A stretch of 41,364 nucleotides of DNA from a virus (taxonomy: Duplodnaviria > Heunggongvirae > Uroviricota > Caudoviricetes), in IMG/VR virus record IMGVR_UViG_2563366951_000005, positions 1 through 41,364 of that record, one strand, 5' to 3'. The translations under genes were made by a program, and so were the position numbers. Of the stretch, positions 27,648-35,619 are shown piece after piece (within the stretch, counting starts at the first letter, position 1; every line of letters starts with the position of its first letter). A model generated the notes under the pieces. It ran no database searches. It saw nothing but the letters and a program-made list of their open reading frames with translations, and was not told the origin of the DNA.

Positions 27648-29585
27648 TCAGGCGGCTGCACCCGCCTTTTGATTTGCACATAATTCAGGAAGATTTGCTT
27701 CTACCAGCGCACGAGCGAACGGCGGCGGTACTGCGTTACCACAGCGCGCTACCTGCTTGTCTTTGGCGTAACGATTGCCGCGATAGTCCTGATCGATAAC
27801 GTAGCCGTCAGGGAAGCCCTGCGCCTTATAAAGCTCATGCGGTTGCAGCATGCGCATTCCGATATCGACGATCTGGTACTTAACCCCCTCGATCGTCACC
27901 AGCCATTCATCCTCGCTATCACCGCAGTAGGTTTCGAGGAATGTCCGGACCTCGCCAACGTGCTGGCCACCAGCGGTAATCGTCGGCATAGGTGTATCCA
28001 TGGTCTGACCGTCGCGGCAGGTTCCGCGCAGCTTCACCAGGTGCGACGCAACTACCGCGTGGTGATCAACAGTAGTGACTGAGTGGGCAGGCTCATCCAT
28101 ACCAACACCCGGCCCCGTGTAATTCCCACCATAGTGCTTCGCCAGGAACGCGCTCACCGTTGCAAACTTATTACCACCAGCAGTGACCGTGCCGAGCGGG
28201 TTATTCAGTTGAAGAACACGCGGTTCTTGCCCTGGGCGTTCGCCGTACCCCATCTGGATCAGTGTTGGAGTTACCAGCTGCGACTTACCGCCACCACCTG
28301 CAGTAATCGTCGCACTCGGTTCGTCAGCCCTGTGCCCAACACTGGCTCCAAACTGGCGGGCGATGACCGGCGCAACCACGCACGCGCGGGACTGCTTGAG
28401 GATTGTATGAGCGGGTTTATCCAGCGGGCGCGGCTTTGCCTGGTACTCACTGCCGCCATTGCCAGCCAGGAACGGTGTCAGGGCGGCCTCAACTACGCCA
28501 AGCGCATGCCCATTCCCGCCCGGGCGCGCCGACGTACCAGCGGTGACAGTTGGTACCGGCTCGGTCACTGGCTGCCCGGTGGCCCCGGTGCGGAATTTAG
28601 TAAGATGCGGTACCGCCAGTGCGTAGCCATGCTTTTTAGTGATGGTCTGCAATGGCTCTAACAACGATTGCCCGCGGAAACAGTCATAACCTCCTTTCGT
28701 CGTGGTGTGGTTACACTTCACGATGAAAGGTGATGCGCTTTCGATAACAAAGCGCTGGATGCCGCGCGCGATACGTTTGAGCGTATTTTCCGCCAGCGGC
28801 TTTTTGCGGTCGAAGATGGACCGGGCCGGGATATTCCAGTCAATGCACTCCGCCGCGGTACGCCATGGCGCCAGCTTGCCGCTTTGTACTTCCAGTGATT
28901 TTGGATCCCCATGAGTCGCTTCAGGCCAATGAATCTTGCGGCCGTCACAGCGCATGACCATGAAGAAACGCTTTCTGATCGTCGGCGCGCCGTAGTCACA
29001 TGCGCGCAGCTCCCGATAATCAACCTCATAACCAAGCCCGGCGATCAGCTGTTGCGCCTGCTGGCCGTGCGGCTCAATGGCAAGGAATTCACAAACCTCA
29101 GCCAGCGCAGGGTGATTCGCCGCGATCCCCGTCGACAGCATGCCGACAAATGCCTCGAATGTTTCGCCAGCACGCTCAGGATCCGGGCGTAATTCTTCAT
29201 CCAGCAGCGGGCCCCATGTCTTAAACTCTTCGACGTTCTCCAGCATCATGACGCGGGGACGTACTGCCAGCGCCCAGCGCAGGACAATCCACGCCAGCCC
29301 GCGAATCTCTTTCTTAACCGGCTTAGCGCCCTTCGCCTTGGAAAAGTGGCGGCAGTCAGGGCTAAACCAGGCCAGACCGACAGGTTTACCGCTGGTGGCT
29401 GCGCTTGGGTCAACGTCAAACACCGACTCGCAATAATGCAGCGTGTCAGGGTGATTCGTCTTATGCATCGCAATAGCGTTTTCGTCGTGGTTGATAGCGA
29501 TATCCACGCTACGCCCGATCGCCAGTTCAATGCCGGTACTCGCGCCGCCGCCACCAGCAAAGTTATCAACGATAATTTCACGCAT
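27648..29585 (-). CDS. DNA cytosine-5 methyltransferase with internally repeated variable region
   Basis: Motif I DNFAGGGGAS, motif IV-like FSPDCRHFS, ENV, C-terminal QxRxxGNAV; four repeats of P-x-T-[VI]-T-A-G-G modules in the middle. Confidence 0.85.
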   Translation of the reverse strand: MREIIVDNFAGGGGASTGIELAIGRSVDIAINHDENAIAMHKTNHPDTLHYCESVFDVDPSAATSGKPVGLAWFSPDCRHFSKAKGAKPVKKEIRGLAWIVLRWALAVRPRVMMLENVEEFKTWGPLLDEELRPDPERAGETFEAFVGMLSTGIAANHPALAEVCEFLAIEPHGQQAQQLIAGLGYEVDYRELRACDYGAPTIRKRFFMVMRCDGRKIHWPEATHGDPKSLEVQSGKLAPWRTAAECIDWNIPARSIFDRKKPLAENTLKRIARGIQRFVIESASPFIVKCNHTTTKGGYDCFRGQSLLEPLQTITKKHGYALAVPHLTKFRTGATGQPVTEPVPTVTAGTSARPGGNGHALGVVEAALTPFLAGNGGSEYQAKPRPLDKPAHTILKQSRACVVAPVIARQFGASVGHRADEPSATITAGGGGKSQLVTPTLIQMGYGERPGQEPRVLQLNNPLGTVTAGGNKFATVSAFLAKHYGGNYTGPGVGMDEPAHSVTTVDHHAVVASHLVKLRGTCRDGQTMDTPMPTITAGGQHVGEVRTFLETYCGDSEDEWLVTIEGVKYQIVDIGMRMLQPHELYKAQGFPDGYVIDQDYRGNRYAKDKQVARCGNAVPPPFARALVEANLPELCANQKAGAAA

Positions 29586-30912
29586 TGACGGCCCCCTGCA
29601 TGCTGTTGAAGAGACCACCAGCGGTCGTGATAATTTCACTCGTCGGCATACGTTCGAGCCACAGCTGGTTGATATTGGCTTTCAGCTTGTTCTGCTGCGA
29701 AACAGGTAGAGCGTCAGCCCCTTCAATCTGGTTAAACACCAGTCCAACCTCAAGAGGCCAAACGCGCGATTCGTTTAACGCCTTGTCCTTTGATTCCTGC
29801 GTCTCACGGACATGGGCGCGGATCCCCCGAATATTTGACCATTTGGCTTTATCCAGGCTTTCCATGGTCGCGATGAATTCACTGTGGTTAATGCCGTATT
29901 CTTTCGCAGACTCAACGGCAACCGTGCGTAACCGCTCTGACATGTCTTGTTTCACGTCATCGCTATCAAAGGGCAATGTTTCCAGCCATGCATTAACACC
30001 CACCAGGATGCTCTCGCTGATCAGCTTTTTCGCTCTGTCGATCGTCAGCGGTGAAACATTGGTAAATTCAGGGTTTTCCAGAGAGTCGGCAGCCCAGGTA
30101 TGACCAAACTTTGACTCGCTGAAGGTGTACTCGTCTTTCTCGCCGAACGCCGCGACAACACAGGCCCAAGCCTCTACACCGCTGGTTTCCAGAATGGCTT
30201 TTTGGGTTAATGGCAGTTCTGCCTCTGATTTCTTCGGCACTACCTCAGCGTCCAGCTCTGGCGCCGCATCAGTTTGCGTTCTTCCCACGGCAAATTGGGC
30301 CAGCGACATCGCAGCACGGCCTTTGGCCTCCAGGTCGGTGCGGTTGATGTAACTGAAACGCTCACCCCGCCATGTTTTGTCGAAGACCACGATAGCGCCA
30401 GCAAAAAATGCGCTGGTGGGCTGCTGCTTTTCGTCTTTCGGCACGAACCATGTAGGAAGATCGAAACCAATTCGGCCACGGATGAATGTGACGTGATCTG
30501 CCTCTTCCGGCCACCACGTTTCACTCGTCGCAGACTTAATGAGAAAAACGTACCGACCACCCTTTTCTCGCATGGCCATAGCGTGGTTAATGATGTGGGT
30601 CATTCCGGTAACGGCCTGCTTGTCGTGGTACTGAGAGCGGCTGTAAGGCGGGTTGCCAAACCCGGCACCACCGAGTTCTGCCAGCCGCTCTGACCAATCC
30701 TGCGTCAGGGCATTATCTTCAGCCGTGTACCATGCTGGGCACTTCGCGTTGCTGTCGTCGGCAAAAAGGTCCAACACCAGAGGGCCGAACATCGCATTGA
30801 TCCCCCAAAACAACAGATCCGGAGTGCGCCATTGATCACCGACCTCTTTCAACTCGTGTGCTGGTTTTGAACGGAGTTCAGCCAGTGCACGGCAGTATTT
30901 ATTTTCCATCAT
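29578..30912 (-). CDS. phage Dam-type N6-adenine DNA methyltransferase (NPPY) with ~260-aa C-terminal extension
   Basis: N-terminal ~180 aa with GFGNPPYS; ATGA overlap with upstream gene; C-terminal domain unassigned. Confidence 0.8.
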   Translation of the reverse strand: MMENKYCRALAELRSKPAHELKEVGDQWRTPDLLFWGINAMFGPLVLDLFADDSNAKCPAWYTAEDNALTQDWSERLAELGGAGFGNPPYSRSQYHDKQAVTGMTHIINHAMAMREKGGRYVFLIKSATSETWWPEEADHVTFIRGRIGFDLPTWFVPKDEKQQPTSAFFAGAIVVFDKTWRGERFSYINRTDLEAKGRAAMSLAQFAVGRTQTDAAPELDAEVVPKKSEAELPLTQKAILETSGVEAWACVVAAFGEKDEYTFSESKFGHTWAADSLENPEFTNVSPLTIDRAKKLISESILVGVNAWLETLPFDSDDVKQDMSERLRTVAVESAKEYGINHSEFIATMESLDKAKWSNIRGIRAHVRETQESKDKALNESRVWPLEVGLVFNQIEGADALPVSQQNKLKANINQLWLERMPTSEIITTAGGLFNSMQGAVNA

Positions 30913-31763
30913 CCTCTGAACCCCTCTGGAATCTTGCTATCAACCGGACCGAACTTCATCGGGTCATGTTTCTTTTCACCCCAGCTGTCACGCGGTGGCC
31001 GCCCCTTCTTGTCCCAGCGGATCCCGCTTTGCAGATAACCTTCAAATTTTTTCGGACCGAAGAGCGTTTCAGGACGCATGTACTGGTACTGCACGTCATT
31101 GCCGTTCCAGTGCTCATGCTTAAGGTCGATCACCAGCTGTAAGTCGCTAACGGTGTAACCTTCACGCAGACGAGCACGGATGTTTTCCAGAGAAGTTTTT
31201 GATTTTTGGTATCGTGAGCCACTAACCAGGTTCAGATGATTCAGAACCAGGATGGCGTTATCGGTGATCATCACTTCAGGGTCTGGTTGCGGCGCAACCG
31301 GACAAGAAGGTTTTTTAACTGATGGATCAGTAGTTGTATTTACTGACGGATCCCCCCCAGATTCTGACGGGTGAAAACCGCCTTTTTCATCGTTTTTTGA
31401 TGCCTCAGATTTTGACGCGTCTGTTTTTGAGGCATCAGATTTTGATGCGTCAGAATCTGACAGGTGAGAAAAGGCAGCAGCCTGCAATTTCGCAACATTG
31501 AGCTGGTAAACGTTCGATGCATTTCGGTTGCCTTTACGGCGCTGCTGGCGGGTTAACCAACCATCTTTTTCCAGCTGAGATATGGCTGTACGAACCGTGC
31601 TCTCACCAGCACCAATCTGGCGCGCGATGGTAGCGATGGAAGGCCAGCTAACCCCTTCATCACTGCTGAAGTCTGCCAGACGCGCCATGATGGCAACGCT
31701 GGATAACTTCATGCCTGACGAAGCGCATGCATCCCATACGTAACCGGTTAATTTAGTGCTCAT
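30909..31763 (-). CDS. replication initiation protein (N-terminal winged-helix domain, central SDASK repeats, conserved phage C-terminal domain)
   Basis: 284 aa; RBS AAGGA; architecture resembles lambdoid O-type initiators; contains DNA iteron-like repeats. Confidence 0.7.
   Translation of the reverse strand: MSTKLTGYVWDACASSGMKLSSVAIMARLADFSSDEGVSWPSIATIARQIGAGESTVRTAISQLEKDGWLTRQQRRKGNRNASNVYQLNVAKLQAAAFSHLSDSDASKSDASKTDASKSEASKNDEKGGFHPSESGGDPSVNTTTDPSVKKPSCPVAPQPDPEVMITDNAILVLNHLNLVSGSRYQKSKTSLENIRARLREGYTVSDLQLVIDLKHEHWNGNDVQYQYMRPETLFGPKKFEGYLQSGIRWDKKGRPPRDSWGEKKHDPMKFGPVDSKIPEGFRG
31339..31466. repeat. iteron-like direct repeats (consensus CAGAtTyTGAyGnGT) with T-tracts, candidate ori inside the initiator gene
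   Basis: Four to five copies at 31339, 31358, 31406, 31437 and 31451 read directly from sequence. Confidence 0.55.
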
Positions 31764-31772
31764 GGTCGTCCT

Positions 31773-32111
31773 TTAATTCTGTAAATTTACGCTGGAATTG
31801 TTCAAGAGGGCTGAAGCACTCATGATCGTACCCTTCGCGAAGGTATATAACGCGCTGTGTATCTGGCTCCCAGCGGACAACTCTGACGGGAACTCCGTAG
31901 TGATCTCTGAACCGCCGGTTAACTTCAGCCATTCCTCGCGCCCCTTCTCGTTCATCTGAACAAATGCTTCTACCATCAAGTCTGCTGGCTGGTAGTTGCC
32001 TCCATCAGCCGCGTTATTTATGATTTCCACATAGCCGAACTGGGCATCTTTACCCACCAGCGGCAAACATCTGAATTGCTTAGCTGGTCTGAATCGGTTT
32101 ACACTGTTCAT
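31773..32111 (-). CDS. hypothetical protein (112 aa)
   Basis: ORF with ATGA overlap to the upstream CII-like gene. Confidence 0.55.
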   Translation of the reverse strand: MNSVNRFRPAKQFRCLPLVGKDAQFGYVEIINNAADGGNYQPADLMVEAFVQMNEKGREEWLKLTGGSEITTEFPSELSAGSQIHSALYTFAKGTIMSASALLNNSSVNLQN

Positions 32112-32671
32112 GCGTTAGTTTCTCCACTGATACGACACGCCAAGGCGCCCGGAGCTGCACACTCGCGGGCGTCACCTTTTCTGCCTGTTGAAACGAATAC
32201 GTCAATCGCCTGATCTGAAACACCAACCCCATAAAGCGCCATAAATCCCAGGAACCCGTGAATCTGGTGGCGGAGCTTCTTACTGAATAATTCTGAAAGC
32301 GTTTTGCGCTCTGATGAATCAATTACCCCATCAGCCGCTGCTGCCATCTTGGCATTAGCCAGCTCACCAGATGCTGCTGCCGCTTTCATCTCAATGCTGT
32401 ACAGCTCAACGTTATCCAGGCTCTCAGCAGTTGGAACATCCACCAGCCATTTCCCTTTTCGGTTCGCCTGGTACTCGGCCAAGTAACAAGAACCAGACAG
32501 GTCCTCCATCCGTTCCAGTTCTGCCAAGGTAAAGAACCGACTGCCACACTTCTGGTACAGGTGGTTGTGGAACTGGTCGATAGTCATCCCTAAATCGGAA
32601 GCCATACCTAAGCGACCATGCTTGTGTGCCTTACACATCAGGCGGATTGCTGTATTTATGCTGTCTACCAT
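32108..32671 (-). CDS. CII-like regulatory protein (phage 186 CII/CP76-like)
   Basis: 187 aa from ATG 32671 with RBS GAGGGA; similarity to 186 CII judged from memory; position directly after cro. Confidence 0.5.
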   Translation of the reverse strand: MVDSINTAIRLMCKAHKHGRLGMASDLGMTIDQFHNHLYQKCGSRFFTLAELERMEDLSGSCYLAEYQANRKGKWLVDVPTAESLDNVELYSIEMKAAAASGELANAKMAAAADGVIDSSERKTLSELFSKKLRHQIHGFLGFMALYGVGVSDQAIDVFVSTGRKGDARECAAPGALACRISGETNA

Positions 32672-32960: not shown

Positions 32961-32988
32961 GTGTTCTCCTATGACTAAGCCTGCATCA

Positions 32989-33017
32989 ATACTACTTATA
33001 GTAGCAATTATTAGCAA
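32989..33017 (-). promoter_or_regulatory. pR: -35 TTGCTA, 17-bp spacer containing operator palindrome CTACTATAAGTAG, -10 TAGTAT
   Basis: Read on minus strand; 22-nt leader to cro RBS. Confidence 0.6.
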
Positions 33018-33029
33018 CTTAAAATAGAA

Positions 33030-33749
33030 ATGACAACTATGCCTTGTGCGCTTAATCTTCTACTTATGGTGGAAAATGCTAAATACAAAGACTTTGCCGA
33101 AAGGCTAAACAGGTCTCTCCAAGAGCAATCTATTGGAGTTAAAGAATTGTCAGAGTTCAGTGGTGTCTCGTATGAGATGGCGCGGCGCTACACTCTTGGT
33201 ACTGCAAAGCCGAGAGATGAGAAGATGATTCGAATTGCAGAAAGACTTGCCGTCTCACCGGCTTATCTTGATTATGGTGTGCCTGTTAATGGTGGCGACG
33301 CGCCAGCCAAAGGCACGGTCAGAATAGAGCAATTGGATGTTCATGCTTCAGCCGGTTCCGGATATATAAACCAACCATTCCCTACAATAGTGAGCTCAAT
33401 AGAGATTCCAGAAGAGAGGATCTTCGAGTTGTTTGGTCGTAGAAGCCTTGATGGCATCGTCATGATAAATGTTGATGGCGATAGCATGATGCCCACGCTT
33501 TGCCCAAAGGACCTGCTTTTCATAGACAGCAAGGTTGAACAATTCAGCGGCGACGGCGTTTATGTGTTCAATTTTGAAGACAGTACGTTCGTTAAACGTT
33601 TGCAGAAGGTAAAAGGGCGCCGACTGGCAGTTCTTTCAGACAATGAACATTACCCGCCCTTCTTCATAGAGGAGCATGAAATGAATGAACTATACATATT
33701 CGGCAAGCTAATCAGATGCTTACCTCTAAAAATGATAGAGTTTGGCTAA
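33030..33749 (+). CDS. cI: CI repressor (HTH plus LexA/S24-type autocleavage domain)
   Basis: 239 aa; N-terminal HTH; C-terminal VDGDSMMPT with Ser and Lys dyad residues; start ambiguous (33030, 33039 or 33066), possibly leaderless. Confidence 0.9.
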   Translation: MTTMPCALNLLLMVENAKYKDFAERLNRSLQEQSIGVKELSEFSGVSYEMARRYTLGTAKPRDEKMIRIAERLAVSPAYLDYGVPVNGGDAPAKGTVRIEQLDVHASAGSGYINQPFPTIVSSIEIPEERIFELFGRRSLDGIVMINVDGDSMMPTLCPKDLLFIDSKVEQFSGDGVYVFNFEDSTFVKRLQKVKGRRLAVLSDNEHYPPFFIEEHEMNELYIFGKLIRCLPLKMIEFG

Positions 33750-33884: not shown

Positions 33885-33993
33885 CATTGCATCGAAAGCG
33901 AACAGGCAGGACGCCCACGAAGTAGCCGCCGGTGGCATATGAATAACCGGATGATTCGCTGACAGAAAACTTAGGTTGGGGGTAGAGGTTTAC

Positions 33994-34359
33994 ATGAATC
34001 ATTTATTCACATGCTCATTTTGCGGAGCAACCGAACTGGGAGCGATAAAGATCGTCGCAAAAGGTGGTAAGGACGAACCTGCCATCTGTTCGGAATGCGT
34101 AGTCACATGTGTAGAAAAAATGATCCTGACTAAAAAATCAGAGGCTGAAAAACCAACCTCTGATAACGAAATAATATCAGTCGATAAAAAACTATTTAAA
34201 GAGCTTCTTCAGCTTGTCCTCAACCTTCCTGATTTCGGAAGTAAGCTGGCTGCTGTTGACATTGATAGTAGCTCCACATCGACAAGTGAAACTTTTGTTC
34301 GACTTGAGCCAAGCGATTTTCTTCTTCGTCTTAGTGCCGCACTTAGGGCATGCGGGTAA
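33994..34359 (+). CDS. ClpX zinc-binding-domain-like C4 zinc-finger protein
   Basis: ATG 33994 with GAGG RBS; FTCSFCG...ICSECV matches the ClpX N-terminal zinc finger pattern (CSFCG...ICDEC); C-terminal half low complexity with rare codons. Confidence 0.55.
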   Translation: MNHLFTCSFCGATELGAIKIVAKGGKDEPAICSECVVTCVEKMILTKKSEAEKPTSDNEIISVDKKLFKELLQLVLNLPDFGSKLAAVDIDSSSTSTSETFVRLEPSDFLLRLSAALRACG

Positions 34360-34389
34360 CGTAATTTCCTGGTTATCAAAAGCGCCCAT
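34192..34389 (-). CDS. antisense zinc-ribbon ORF (CPKCG...CRCG), uncertain
   Basis: 65 aa from ATG 34389 with strong RBS AAGAGGG; overlaps the 3' half of the plus-strand ORF; only one of the two may be real in the overlap. Confidence 0.35.
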   Translation of the reverse strand: MGAFDNQEITLPACPKCGTKTKKKIAWLKSNKSFTCRCGATINVNSSQLTSEIRKVEDKLKKLFK

Positions 34390-34482
34390 AAACATCCCTC
34401 TTGGTTGTGTGAGAACACCAAGATACCACCGCGCCTGATGTGGTTAAAAGCAGGCTAAAGCAATAACAAGTAACTCCCTGTT

Positions 34483-34532
34483 CTGGCGGCCCGGTGTTTT
34501 CCCGTGTATTTCCGGTAACCGCCAGCCTTTTT
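34483..34532 (+). terminator. long GC-rich stem-loop (CTGGCGG...CCGCCAG) followed by T5
   Basis: Seen in sequence, in the 340-bp gap before rdgC. Confidence 0.4.
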
Positions 34533-34701
34533 CAGGGCACAACAGAAAAGGGCATCACCGGGCGACGGGCTCATAACCCAATCCACCCGGGCAAAAAGAA
34601 AGCGGTCTCTGCAAGCCGCCGACCAATGCAGGTGCCCTTCTCTGTTGTGTATGGAGAAACTAACTTTTTAGCGTCTGTGCAGATGCGCTGAGGAACCGAG
34701 A

Positions 34702-35619
34702 ATGAATAATCCGTTTTTCAAAAATATGTTGGTGTATCGCATTAGTCGCGATTTCACCATCAACCAGGAAGAGCTGGAACAGCAGCTTGAACTATTTCGC
34801 TTCACTCCATGCGGTAGCCAGGATATGGCAAAAACCGGTTGGGTATCACCACTTGGTCAGCTGTCAGATCGCTTGCATCACACTGTCAATAATCAAGTGT
34901 TGTTGGTTATTCGCCGGGAAGAAAAAATACTGCCATCTCCTGTCATTACTGAAGAACTGCGCAAGCGTGTGTCGCGTCTGGAATCCGATCAGGGGCGTCG
35001 CCTCAAAAAAACTGAGAAAGATTCGCTGCGTGATGAAGTGTTGCACTCCCTGCTTCCTCGGGCGTTCTCCAAAAACTCGACTGTTGGTTTGTGGATCAAC
35101 GTCACCGACGGTCTGATCATGGTTGATGCAGCCAGCGCTAAACGTGCCGAAGACTCACTGGCCCTGCTTCGTAAAACTCTCGGTTCTCTCCCGGTGGTAC
35201 CGCTGACTATGGAAACGCCGATCGAACTAACTATGACCGACTGGGTTCGTTCCGGTAGTGCGCCTGCTGGCTTTGGCCTGGGTGATGAAGCCGAACTGAA
35301 AGCTATTCTTGAAGATGGCGGTATTGGACGCTTTAAAAAACAGACTCTGGTCAGTGACGAAATTCATGTGCATCTGGAAGCTGGCAAAGTAGTTACAAAG
35401 CTGTCTATCGACTGGCAACAGCGCATTCAGTTCGTTCTTTGCGATGACGGCAGCATCAAACGCCTTAAGTTCTCTAATGAGATTACAGAACAAAACGACG
35501 ATATCGACCGTGAGGATGCGGCTCAGCGGTTCGACGCTGACTTTGTTCTGATGACCGGCGAGCTTATCTCTCTCATTAACGGATTAACAACCTCTCTCGG
35601 CGGCGAAGCCAAGCGATAA
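34702..35619 (+). CDS. rdgC: recombination-associated protein RdgC homolog
   Basis: 305 aa; long blocks ([59 protein letters not shown]) match E. coli RdgC as recalled. Confidence 0.9.

What the first reader, a model, noticed from the sequence alone, without database searches (positions are those of the whole stretch)
31339..31466. Iteron-like repeats inside the replication initiator gene, and no helicase-loader gene
Four to five ~16-bp repeats (CAGATTCTGACGGGTG, CAGATTTTGACGCGTC, CAGATTTTGATGCGTC, CAGAATCTGACAGGTG) with intervening T-tracts lie within the initiator coding region, as the lambda ori lies in O. They also encode the SDASK linker repeats of the protein. Unlike lambda there is no P-like or DnaC-like gene after the initiator; two methyltransferase genes follow instead.
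Basis: partly seen in the sequence, partly recalled or inferred. Interest (0 to 1): 0.45.

Follow-up and report, generated by a model that had tools for sequence, protein, structure and literature searches.

The report
Phage replication origin inside initiator gene
The repeats are real and very probably form the phage's replication origin, placed inside its own initiator gene as in phage lambda; that this phage group has no helicase-loader gene was already published in 2025 and remains unexplained.

Summary
The initiator gene (30909-31763, minus strand) has a 15-bp tandem array of 4 units, flanked by two palindromic sites GTCAGAWTCTGAC. All five matches to this motif in the 41-kb window lie at 31357-31461, against 0.57 expected by chance.

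The selection acts on DNA, not on the peptide:
- Across 29 homologous genes, synonymous differences fall to 0.16 in the linker, against 0.50 and 0.48 in the two folded domains. Amino-acid variability in the linker is higher than in the N-domain.
- The motif occurs 3-8 times wherever this N-terminal winged-helix domain occurs, whatever the C-domain. It is absent where the same C-domain follows a different N-domain.
- In phiP27 one copy is read in a different frame.

After the sites come a 43-46-bp stretch of 63-72% A+T with fixed GATC sites, then a conserved palindrome (31281-31303). This iteron-then-AT-rich order matches ori-lambda.

The protein is not a detectable lambda O homologue. Its C-domain is the Phg_2220_C domain of SPP1 G38P, whose origin oriL also lies in its own gene.

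No helicase or loader gene is present in the window or in 14 relatives. The same was published for the 95.6%-identical phage LLS in 2025 as not understood, without an origin being described.

This is a new variant of a known kind, of moderate interest.

The parts
30909..31763 (-). Replication initiator gene, 284 aa. Winged-helix N-domain (aa 1-98), disordered linker (aa 99-160), helical Phg_2220_C domain (aa 162-253), disordered tail ending KIPEGFRG.
   Evidence: ORF. Pfam: HTH_36 E 1.9e-9 and Phg_2220_C E 4.7e-23. PHROG hits to 'replication initiation protein', 'replication initiation O-like' and 'primosomal protein' families. AF2 model: pLDDT about 90 in the C-domain and below 50 in the linker.
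31281..31461 (.). Predicted replication origin as a whole: iterons, then an A+T-rich GATC-bearing stretch, then a palindrome. It lies inside the linker-coding part of the initiator gene.
   Evidence: Synonymous-difference fraction is 0.158 for aa 97-160, against 0.503 (N-domain) and 0.478 (C-domain) in 29 homologous genes. Amino-acid difference is 0.278 in the linker against 0.139 in the N-domain. Mann-Whitney p = 5.5e-17. Invariant DNA blocks are shown.
31449..31461 (.). Iteron site I: perfect 13-bp palindrome GTCAGATTCTGAC.
   Evidence: Conserved as CACCTGTCAGAWTCTGAC in most of the 29 genes.
31390..31445 (.). Tandem 15-bp iteron array of four units. Cores on the coding strand are TCAAAATCTGA, TCAAAAACAGA, TCAAAATCTGA and TCAAAAAACGA. 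It encodes the (S/T)(D/E)ASK repeats.
   Evidence: TRF period 15 with 4 copies. The core, including the Ser wobble bases, is conserved, while the 4-nt spacer varies and changes the amino acid among A, P, T and G. Copy number is 2-6 among homologues. Protein lengths of 274, 279, 284 and 289 aa reflect this.
31357..31370 (.). Iteron site II: CCGTCAGAATCTGG on the coding strand.
   Evidence: Nearly invariant, third codon positions included, in 29 genes. In every gene where both are detected it lies 48 bp after the last tandem unit.
31305..31352 (.). A+T-rich stretch and candidate unwinding element. It holds two 24-bp-spaced repeats GATCCRTCAGTWAA, with GATC at 31349-31352 and 31325-31328.
   Evidence: The least stable 40-mers of the gene start at 31300-31310 (66% A+T, 99th percentile of the window). 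The stretch is 43 or 46 bp long with 63-72% A+T in the 27 genes where both landmarks were found. The first GATC is present in 29/29 genes and the second in 24/29.
31281..31303 (.). Conserved G+C-rich palindrome GTCCGGTTGCG-C-CGCAACCAGAC at the linker/C-domain junction.
   Evidence: Inverted repeat I7, 91% complementary. Present in the homologues and in F1055 and L041, which have a different N-domain. Its function is unknown. It is also the point where N and C modules are exchanged.
30912..30935 (-). C-terminal tail KIPEGFRG, a conserved short motif and candidate docking peptide.
   Evidence: The motif ..DYS..(I)P..GFR(G/S) also ends initiators that have the lambda-O-type C-domain (SfII, KpF5, 733R5, PhiR29_2), as well as phiNP and F1055. 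Its role as a docking peptide is inferred only.
31753..31932 (-). DUF4222 small ORF (59 aa) whose end overlaps the initiator start codon. It is a constant upstream neighbour of this initiator type.
   Evidence: Pfam DUF4222 E 5.1e-18. Directly upstream of the initiator in L012, L015, L017, L018 and L019. 56% identical to the L012 DUF4222 protein.
29578..30912 (-). Dam-family N6-adenine methyltransferase (444 aa), immediately downstream in the position where lambda has P. It is not a loader.
   Evidence: PF05869 E 1.9e-43. PHROG 'DNA methyltransferase'.
27648..29639 (-). C5-cytosine DNA methyltransferase (663 aa).
   Evidence: PF00145 E 2.1e-20.

Best explanation
Window 31281-31461 is the theta-replication origin of this lambdoid prophage, embedded in the linker-coding part of its own initiator gene.

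Proposed sequence of events:
1. Dimers of the initiator's N-terminal winged-helix domain bind the palindromic sites GTCAGAWTCTGAC (sites I and II) and the weaker 15-bp tandem units between them. This is inferred, not shown.
2. The resulting nucleoprotein complex strains and opens the adjacent 43-bp A+T-rich, GATC-bearing stretch (31305-31347). Inferred.
3. The C-terminal Phg_2220_C domain, of the SPP1 G38P 'replisome organizer' type, together with the conserved tail IPEGFRG, brings in the host's own DnaB-DnaC complex. The phage encodes no helicase and no loader. This step is inferred and is the least certain.

The SDASK peptide repeats are a by-product of the DNA repeats lying in a disordered linker that tolerates almost any sequence.
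For: Shown by sequence analysis:
- Motif enrichment is confined to this spot: 5 matches against 0.57 expected, all within 105 bp.
- Synonymous sites are about three times more conserved in the linker than in the two folded domains (0.158 against 0.503 and 0.478), while amino acids are less conserved there than in the N-domain (0.278 against 0.139). Based on 29 genes, p = 5.5e-17.
- Within the 15-bp units the conserved bases are the core TCAAAATCTGA, including both Ser wobble bases. The 4-nt spacer varies and changes the residue among A, P, T and G.
- phiP27 has five such sites, and the fifth (GACCCTTCAGAATCTGGAC) is read in another frame, as LTLQNLD instead of DPSDSG.
- The motif occurs 3-8 times in every gene with this N-domain, whatever follows it: the G38P-type C-domain, the lambda-O-type C-domain (SfII) or other C-termini (phiP27, Proteus). 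It occurs 0 times in genes with the same C-domain but another N-domain (F1055, L041).
- In all 11 initiator genes examined, of differing N-domain types and including SPP1 gene 38, near-exact 12-mer repeats cluster in the linker. The repeat sequence differs between lineages.
- The least stable DNA of the gene lies directly after site II (99th percentile of the window). Where measurable (27 genes) this stretch has a conserved length of 43 or 46 bp, and its first GATC is present in all 29 genes.
- A conserved palindrome follows.
- The C-domain is PF09524, as in SPP1 G38P (BLASTP 35% identity over 98 aa, E 2e-11; Pfam E 2e-20).

From the literature:
- G38P binds oriL, which lies within gene 38 (PMC6316719).
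- Ori-lambda lies in the middle of O and consists of inverted-repeat iterons plus an AT-rich tract (PMC7466680, PMC3349717; annotated in NC_001416).

Loader absence:
- No helicase, loader or primase family hit in the window.
- None next to the initiator in 14 relatives.
- Stated for phage LLS and for 34 of 314 lambdoid phages in PMC12315714.
- The same C-domain family sits next to DnaC/IstB-like loaders in Vibrio phages douglas and BT-1011 and next to G39P and G40P in SPP1. Engaging a loader-helicase complex is therefore the likely ancestral job of this domain.
- Iteron-plasmid initiators recruit host DnaB, with or without DnaA and DnaC, and have no loader of their own (review PMC4980987).
Against: - No experiment exists: neither binding nor origin activity has been shown for this family.
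- The A+T-rich stretch is only 63-72% A+T, much less extreme than typical unwinding elements.
- The 15-bp period puts neighbouring sites on opposite faces of the helix, and adjacent palindromes share bases, so not all units can be occupied in the lambda manner. Their number varies from 2 to 6, so several are dispensable.
- The most conserved block (site II to the palindrome) coincides with the junction at which N and C modules recombine. Part of its conservation could therefore reflect recombination history rather than origin function.
- No DnaA box lies nearby, so host DnaA help is neither indicated nor excluded.
- For the helicase-recruitment step there is no direct evidence at all. LLS growth depends on RecBCD-promoted recombination (PMC12315714), which leaves room for a PriA-type loading route.
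Confidence: 0.72

Rival explanations
1. The conserved DNA is a recombination 'junction' sequence. It is a short stretch kept similar among mosaic lambdoid phages because module exchange between the N-domain module and the C-domain modules happens there. It would not be a protein-binding origin.
For: The same N-domain plus linker is joined to three or more different C-termini (SfII lambda-O-type; phiP27; Proteus L043-45). The same C-domain is joined to another N-domain in F1055 and L041. The break falls at or next to the palindrome at 31281-31303, which is itself retained on both sides of such exchanges.
Against: It does not explain the following:
- the internal repeat and palindrome structure;
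- conservation of an 11-nt core with a freely varying 4-nt spacer in each unit;
- the fixed 48-bp and 43/46-bp spacings;
- the out-of-frame copy in phiP27;
- the fact that every other lineage of the family has its own, different repeats at the same place.

Amino-acid divergence in the linker is high, so the segment is not simply young.
Confidence: 0.1
2. The sites are bound by the initiator, or by another phage protein, for regulation rather than initiation. Examples would be autoregulation by a transcriptional roadblock, copy-number control by handcuffing, or titration. The true origin would lie elsewhere.
For: Winged-helix proteins of this kind are annotated by NCBI as GntR-type regulators. 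Iterons in plasmids also serve control functions (PMC4980987). The A+T-rich stretch is modest, and far less stable DNA exists at 32986-33030 and about 25070 in the window.
Against: The two least stable spots are the cI/cro divergent-promoter region and an intergenic spacer, and neither holds any copy of the motif. The initiator families with known origins (lambda O, SPP1 G38P) have them at this same place in the gene. There is no other repeat cluster of the motif in 41 kb.
Confidence: 0.1
3. It is a plain low-complexity protein linker. The tandem peptide repeats (SDASK) arose by replication slippage, and the DNA similarity comes only from recent duplication or gene conversion, with no cis-acting role.
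For: Copy number changes in steps of 15 bp (5 aa) and 24 bp (8 aa) among close relatives. The linker is predicted to be disordered.
Against: - Synonymous sites are conserved across genera, while the encoded residues vary.
- The non-repeated part (aa 130-160) is the most conserved at the DNA level (0.122).
- One copy of the motif is in another frame.
- The motif co-occurs with the N-domain type.
Confidence: 0.04
4. The origin reading is right, but helicase loading takes a different route. Either DnaB is loaded through the host PriA/PriB/DnaT (or PriC) restart primosome on a D-loop or R-loop, or a small phage protein of unknown function acts as the loader. Candidates are the DUF4222 protein, the roughly 65-aa ORF upstream, or the PerC-like protein in relatives.
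For: LLS lacks a recombination module, is rich in Chi sites and needs RecBCD for growth (PMC12315714). DUF4222 is a constant, translationally coupled upstream neighbour. SPP1's loader G39P is only 126 aa, so small loaders do exist.
Against: DUF4222 and the upstream ORF have no detectable similarity to any loader. The PerC-like gene is absent from the window, LLS and Flotzy. Recombination-dependent growth concerns late replication and does not remove the need for a first initiation event.
Confidence: 0.3

Closest known systems
Gene 44 ('O family protein') of Escherichia phage LLS, and the 34 'O-only' lambdoid phages of Zhang et al., Genome Res 2025 (PMC12315714)
   Same: It is the same gene: 95.6% DNA identity over all 855 bp, with the same repeat array apart from one base. 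The synteny is the same: cI-cro-cII-small ORF-initiator-methyltransferase-Ant-DUF968-Q. LLS is a viable phage. Its lack of a P, helicase or loader gene is stated in that paper, which says the replication is 'not yet understood'.
   Different: The paper calls the protein a lambda O homologue and describes no origin ('iterons' occurs 0 times). Three points are added here: the origin anatomy, the evidence for DNA-level selection, and the finding that the C-domain is of the G38P type rather than the lambda-O type.
Ori-lambda within gene O of phage lambda, including the six-iteron origins of Stx phages
   Same: The origin lies in the middle of the initiator gene, in the linker between a DNA-binding N-domain and a C-domain. 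It has several inverted-repeat iterons followed by an A+T-rich stretch (PMC7466680, PMC3349717). The number of iterons varies between phages. The N-domain and origin travel together as a specificity module.
   Different: - There is no detectable sequence similarity to lambda O (E 0.63). The N-domain is HTH_36/DnaD_N-like, not PF04492.
- The iterons are 11-13 bp at a 15-bp period, against 18-19 bp at a 20-24-bp period in lambda.
- The A+T-rich part is weaker and carries GATC sites.
- There is no P gene.
- The C-domain is unrelated in the window. The relative SfII does carry a lambda-O-type C-domain (E 7e-26).
G38P ('replisome organizer') and oriL of Bacillus phage SPP1
   Same: It has the same C-terminal Pfam domain, PF09524, with 35% identity over 98 aa. 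Its origin, made of direct repeats plus an AT-rich unwinding element, lies inside the initiator's own gene (PMC6316719).
   Different: The N-domains are not alignable. SPP1 encodes its own loader G39P and helicase G40P next to gene 38. The host is Gram-positive.
Iteron-plasmid initiators (RK2 TrfA, pSC101 RepA, R6K pi)
   Same: A winged-helix initiator binds iterons next to an unwinding element and recruits the host's DnaB, with or without DnaA and DnaC, because the replicon has no helicase or loader of its own (PMC4980987).
   Different: There is no family relationship; the only hit is a weak sub-threshold RP-C match. In the plasmids the iterons are intergenic direct repeats bound by monomers. 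Here they are palindromes inside the coding sequence.
DnaD of Firmicutes
   Different: The DnaD_N score of 24.7 bits is below Pfam's cut-off of 27. The DnaD C-domain fold was not confirmed. DnaD is not a sequence-specific origin binder. The host here has no DnaD, DnaB(Bsu) or DnaI system.

Membership tests
Lambda-type origin (ori inside the O gene, O/P system) | Several inverted-repeat initiator-binding sites (iterons) inside the initiator gene, between its two domains | tested here: met
   There are two 13-bp palindromic sites and four 15-bp units at 31357-31461, in the linker codons aa 101-136. Binding itself was not tested.
Lambda-type origin (ori inside the O gene, O/P system) | A+T-rich unwinding stretch directly after the iterons | tested here: met
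   The 40-mers starting at 31300-31310 are the least stable of the gene (66% A+T, 99th percentile of the window). The stretch is 43/46 bp with 63-72% A+T in the 27 homologues where it could be delimited. It is weaker than the 38-bp 'high AT-rich' tract of lambda.
Lambda-type origin (ori inside the O gene, O/P system) | Initiator is a homologue of lambda O (PF04492 N-domain, O-type C-domain) | tested here: not met
   There is no PF04492 hit. BLASTP against lambda O gives E 0.63. Lambda O itself hits PF04492 at E 5.7e-36.
Lambda-type origin (ori inside the O gene, O/P system) | Partner helicase-loader gene (P, DnaC-like) or helicase gene next to the initiator | tested here: not met
   Methyltransferase genes follow the initiator. 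No loader or helicase family hit appears anywhere in the window.
Lambda-type origin (ori inside the O gene, O/P system) | Fragment supports initiator-dependent replication | not testable with these tools
   This needs a plasmid origin-cloning assay or origin mapping.
SPP1 G38P-type replisome organizer (Phg_2220_C proteins) | C-terminal PF09524 domain | tested here: met
   E 4.7e-23 and 81.5 bits against a cut-off of 27, covering aa 173-245. G38P has the same domain (E 2e-20). Pairwise BLASTP gives E 2e-11.
SPP1 G38P-type replisome organizer (Phg_2220_C proteins) | Origin repeats within the protein's own gene | tested here: met
   Repeats cluster in the linker of this gene and of SPP1 gene 38. 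OriL is reported to lie within gene 38 (PMC6316719).
SPP1 G38P-type replisome organizer (Phg_2220_C proteins) | Adjacent phage loader (G39P) and DnaB-type helicase (G40P) | tested here: not met
   Present in SPP1, absent here.
SPP1 G38P-type replisome organizer (Phg_2220_C proteins) | N-domain homologous to that of G38P | tested here: not met
   BLASTP aligns only the C-domain. G38P has no HTH_36 hit.
DnaD-like proteins | DnaD N-terminal winged-helix domain | tested here: inconclusive
DnaD-like proteins | DnaD/DnaB_2-type C-terminal helical domain | tested here: inconclusive

The most novel reading that the evidence does not exclude
These 'initiator-only' lambdoid phages use a distinct initiation pathway. 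A hybrid initiator combines a DnaD_N-like winged helix, its own in-gene origin, and a G38P-type (or, interchangeably, lambda-O-type) organizer domain. It docks the host DnaB-DnaC complex, or a restart primosome, directly through the conserved extreme C-terminal peptide ..DYS..IPxGFRG. This would make a phage-encoded loader unnecessary. The fixed GATC pair in the unwinding element, and the adenine methyltransferase gene that always follows the initiator (from three unrelated families), would form a methylation-based control of origin firing, analogous to Dam/SeqA at oriC.
Probability: 0.3. Interest if true: 0.65.

Novelty: new variant of a known kind. Interest (0 to 1): 0.45.

Why it matters
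About one in nine Enterobacterales lambdoid phages (34 of 314; PMC12315714) carry only an initiator gene and no helicase or loader. How they start replication is an acknowledged open question.

Three results here make that question directly testable by origin cloning, footprinting, synonymous recoding, tail deletion and host dnaC, priA and dam/seqA mutants:
- The origin is pinned to about 180 bp (31281-31461), with defined sites.
- The initiator's C-domain is the SPP1 G38P type, not the lambda O type.
- A conserved C-terminal peptide is flagged that is shared by initiators with different C-domains.

The case is also a clean example of a cis element revealed by suppressed synonymous variation inside a disordered protein linker. 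In addition, it warns that 'O family', 'GntR regulator' and 'primosomal protein' annotations of this gene are not based on homology to those proteins.

Tried and rejected
- The search for related loci with the alignments A2 and A3 failed because no stretch was conserved enough.
- A separate C-domain model gave no convincing PDB neighbour, so a 'DnaD-like C-domain fold' is not claimed.
- The profile search of PDB sequences found nothing for the C-domain.
- Homology to lambda O was rejected.
- DnaA boxes: only 2 in the window, both far from the gene and no more than chance gives.
- Rfam found no match at 30900-32200.
- Promoter-like and terminator-like sites there are no more frequent than in shuffles, so an internal promoter, terminator or sRNA reading was dropped.
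- A literature search for the motif string found only unrelated primers.
- The long C-terminal extension of the Dam-family protein and the 112-aa or DUF4222 ORFs were considered as hidden loaders. No family evidence supports this.
- The 'P27' O protein studied in PMC7466680 is lambda-like and should not be equated with the HTH_36-type L17 protein of NC_003356 used here. That paper is cited only for general ori-lambda facts.
Full report
**1. What is there**

The finding lies inside a 284-aa ORF on the minus strand, 30909-31763. Pfam gives an N-terminal winged helix (HTH_36, aa 23-70, with weak GntR, PaaX and DnaD_N matches) and a C-terminal Phg_2220_C domain (aa 173-245, E 4.7e-23). PHROG families annotated 'replication initiation protein', 'replication initiation O-like' and 'primosomal protein' match it.

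The gene sits in a lambdoid early-right operon. The order is a cI-like S24 repressor (33030-33749, + strand), a cro-like gene, a CII/CP76-like gene, small ORFs, the initiator, a Dam-family methyltransferase, a C5 methyltransferase, Ant, a DUF968/HNH gene and Q. The rest of the window holds lambda-like head, tail, terminase and lysis genes and an integrase.

An AlphaFold2 model built on 38 homologues shows four regions:
- a winged helix at aa 1-98;
- a disordered linker at aa 99-160 (pLDDT below 50);
- a confident helical domain at aa 162-253 (pLDDT about 90);
- a disordered tail.

**2. Check of the observation**

The quoted 16-mers are at 31358, 31406, 31436 and 31451. Tandem Repeats Finder reports a 15-bp unit with 4 copies at 31395-31454.

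Read on the coding strand, the structure is as follows:
- Site I is CACCTGTCAGATTCTGAC, containing the perfect 13-bp palindrome GTCAGATTCTGAC at 31449-31461.
- Four 15-bp units follow, with cores TCAAAATCTGA, TCAAAAACAGA, TCAAAATCTGA and TCAAAAAACGA (31390-31445).
- After a 22-bp spacer comes site II, CCGTCAGAATCTGG (31357-31370).

GTCARAWTCTGA with up to one mismatch occurs 5 times in the 41-kb window, all at 31357-31461. The expectation is 0.57, and none of 100 shuffles reaches 5. The array encodes (S/T)(D/E)ASK four times.

**3. DNA-level or protein-level repeats?**

I collected homologous genes from annotated phages, from public assemblies and from one genome per species. The evidence comes in four steps.

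(a) Diverse members of the HTH_36 + Phg_2220_C family (27-75% identity) all carry short repeated peptides in the linker, but with a different sequence in each lineage. In 11 initiator genes of differing N-domain types, including SPP1 gene 38, near-exact 12-mer DNA repeats cluster in the linker.

(b) I compared synonymous and amino-acid differences in 29 non-identical genes sharing this N-domain and C-domain:

| Region | Synonymous difference among same-residue pairs | Amino-acid difference |
|---|---|---|
| N-domain | 0.503 | 0.139 |
| Linker aa 97-160 | 0.158 | 0.278 |
| aa 130-160 (within the linker) | 0.122 | 0.242 |
| C-domain | 0.478 | 0.384 |

The per-codon Mann-Whitney test of the linker against both domains gives p = 5.5e-17. 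The alignment shows which bases are fixed: the 11-nt cores, including both serine wobble bases, and the block TTTSACCCGTCAGAATCTGGnGGGGATCCGTCAGTAAA. The 4-nt spacers between cores vary, and they change the residue among A, P, T and G.

(c) phiP27 L17 has an N-domain 62% identical to the window's. It carries five TCAGAWTCTG sites, and the fifth is translated in another frame.

(d) TCARAWTCTGR with up to 1 mismatch occurs 3-8 times in every gene with this N-domain, whatever the C-terminus. That includes SfII gp41, whose C-half is lambda-O-like (BLASTP E 7e-26), phiP27 and the Proteus genes. It occurs 0 times in F1055 and L041, which have the same C-domain (about 80% identical in F1055) behind a different N-domain with different repeats.

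Together these results show a cis-acting DNA element that co-inherits with the DNA-binding domain. This is the signature of an initiator and iteron specificity module.

**4. The rest of the element**

Directly after site II lie two 24-bp-spaced repeats, GATCCRTCAGTWAA (31339-31352 and 31314-31328). The 40-mers starting at 31300-31310 are the least stable of the gene (66% A+T, 99th percentile of the window).

Among the 29 genes, the distance from the first GATC to the next element is 43 or 46 bp, with 63-72% A+T, in the 27 genes where both landmarks were found. The first GATC is present in 29/29 and the second in 24/29.

A G+C-rich palindrome, GTCCGGTTGCG-C-CGCAACCAGAC (31281-31303), follows. 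It is also kept in F1055 and L041.

The last tandem unit is always 48 bp from site II where both were detected. The number of tandem units varies from 2 to 6.

The iterons-then-AT-rich order is that of ori-lambda, which has four 18-bp inverted-repeat iterons plus a 38-bp AT-rich tract in the middle of O (PMC3349717, PMC7466680; features in NC_001416). For lambda, two iterons plus the AT-rich tract suffice (PMC7466680). This fits the tolerance of copy-number change seen here.

**5. What the protein is**

It is not a detectable lambda O homologue. BLASTP gives E 0.63, and there is no PF04492 hit, whereas lambda O hits PF04492 at 5.7e-36.

The C-domain is PF09524, the same domain as in SPP1 G38P (Pfam E 2e-20; 35% identity over 98 aa, E 2e-11). 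G38P is the SPP1 origin-binding 'replisome organizer'. Its oriL lies within gene 38, and it works with the loader G39P and the helicase G40P (PMC6316719).

**6. The missing loader**

No ORF scanned in the window hits a helicase, DnaC/IstB, lambda P or primase family. The same gene order without any loader is seen in the following relatives:
- LLS and Flotzy;
- SfII and F1055;
- eight prophages of Erwinia, Salmonella, Dryocola, Kosakonia, Citrobacter and others;
- 733R5, KpF5, phiNP, YeP2 and PhiR29_2.

This is already in the literature. For LLS, whose initiator gene is 95.6% identical, Zhang et al. 2025 state three things: the replication module is a single O-like gene; 34 of 314 Enterobacterales lambdoid phages are alike; and their replication 'is not yet understood' (PMC12315714). 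They describe no origin.

**7. How it most likely works**

*Shown:* a conserved, N-domain-linked array of palindromic sites, followed by an easily melted GATC-bearing stretch, inside the linker codons.

*Inferred:* N-domain dimers bind the sites, strongly at sites I and II and weakly at the units between them, and the complex opens the adjacent stretch. As in iteron plasmids, which have no loader of their own (PMC4980987), the initiator then recruits host DnaB-DnaC.

The C-domain family is found next to DnaC/IstB-like loaders in Vibrio phages douglas and BT-1011 and next to G39P and G40P in SPP1. Contact with a loader-helicase complex is therefore its plausible ancestral role.

A further lead is the extreme C-terminal peptide ..DYS..IPxGFR(G/S). 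It is shared by loader-less initiators with either type of C-domain (window, phiNP and F1055 against SfII, KpF5, 733R5 and PhiR29_2).

A PriA-type route, or a small unknown phage factor such as DUF4222, cannot be excluded. LLS needs RecBCD for growth (PMC12315714).

**8. Rivals**

- *Recombination junction.* This explains where the conserved block lies, but not its repeat structure, its fixed spacings or the out-of-frame copy.
- *Regulatory binding array with the origin elsewhere.* This is not excluded by computation. However, no other copy of the motif exists in the window, and the two characterised analogues (lambda O and SPP1 G38P) have their origins at this position.
- *Plain slippage-generated linker.* This is contradicted.
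- *Internal promoter, terminator or RNA family.* No support was found.

**9. Verdict**

The element is a new variant of a known kind: an origin embedded in its initiator gene, as in lambda and SPP1. It differs in having an unrelated winged-helix N-domain, short 15-bp-period palindromic iterons, a G38P-type C-domain in a Gram-negative lambdoid phage, and no loader. The loader-less state is already published.

New here are the origin anatomy, the selection evidence, the domain assignment and the tail motif. Interest is moderate (0.45): not surprising in principle, but it turns an acknowledged open question into defined experiments.

Noticed in passing
window 31753-32111 (minus strand): Two overlapping reading frames both have family support. 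One is a 112-aa ORF (31773-32111, phrog_1170). The other is a 59-aa DUF4222 ORF (31753-31932, Pfam E 5e-18) whose end overlaps the initiator start. In Erwinia locus L012 the same space holds two separate genes of 69 aa and 62 aa (DUF4222). They match the N-part of the 112-aa ORF (32% identity) and the window's DUF4222 ORF (56% identity) respectively. The 'YmfM-like' 108-112-aa genes annotated in SfII, LLS and PhiR29_2 may therefore be mis-calls of two small genes.
   Followed up: partly
window 29578-30912; loci L012-L020, L003, L006, L049-L053: An N6-adenine methyltransferase gene follows the initiator within zero or one gene in every relative examined. It comes from three unrelated families: Dam PF05869, MT-A70 PF05063 and D12 PF02086. 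The putative unwinding element carries GATC at fixed positions (29/29 and 24/29 genes). A link between origin methylation and firing is possible but untested.
   Followed up: partly
window 30912-30935 (aa 277-284, KIPEGFRG): The extreme C-terminal peptide ..DYS..IPxGFR(G/S) is shared by initiators with the G38P-type C-domain and by initiators with the lambda-O-type C-domain, all from loader-less phages. In YeP2, Erwinia and Dryocola it is replaced by a roughly 60-aa extension (ERDAAYRRF...WNxIW).
   Followed up: partly
L005:3938-4714 (Stx phage 24B 'O') and L010:3018-3806 (Aeromonas phage 4_4512): The linker repeats of these more distant HTH_36 initiators are GGGGCAGGAGCTGCCCC (3 copies) and CGCAGATTCTGCAC (3 copies, 42-bp period). 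Both share a CAG-N3-CTG palindromic core with the window's TCAGAATCTGA. This suggests a family-wide recognition mode with lineage-specific flanks.
   Followed up: partly
protein P0104 (961-nt Logan contig), aligned: This variant of the initiator has its linker (about 30 aa) read in a different frame between two compensating frameshifts, while the DNA is otherwise conserved. If it is not a sequencing error, it shows that the linker peptide sequence is dispensable.
   Followed up: no
window 29578-30912 and 27648-29639: The Dam-family protein has a roughly 230-aa C-terminal extension (aa 212-444) with no Pfam hit. The C5 methyltransferase is unusually long (663 aa), with its PF00145 match split into three stretches.
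   Followed up: no
window 33976-35619 (+ strand): The early-left operon carries a 127-aa protein with a ClpX-type zinc finger (sub-threshold Pfam hit), a full-length RdgC homologue (E 2e-115), a YfbR-like nucleotidase (weak hit) and an Rv2179c-like 3'-5' exonuclease. It has no Red- or RecET-type recombinase. This recalls the 'no Rec module' state described for LLS.
   Followed up: no
window 31270-31500 against complete E. coli genomes: The origin segment is found in only 16 of 5426 complete E. coli genomes, always once and on the chromosome. Strain ECONIH4 carries a version 30 bp longer (two more units). The initiator gene is identical in DNA (855 of 855 bases) to a fragment of Escherichia phage Phi06_2987; a contig labelled as a Buttiauxella MAG (L021) encodes a protein differing at one residue (S15A).
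   Followed up: partly
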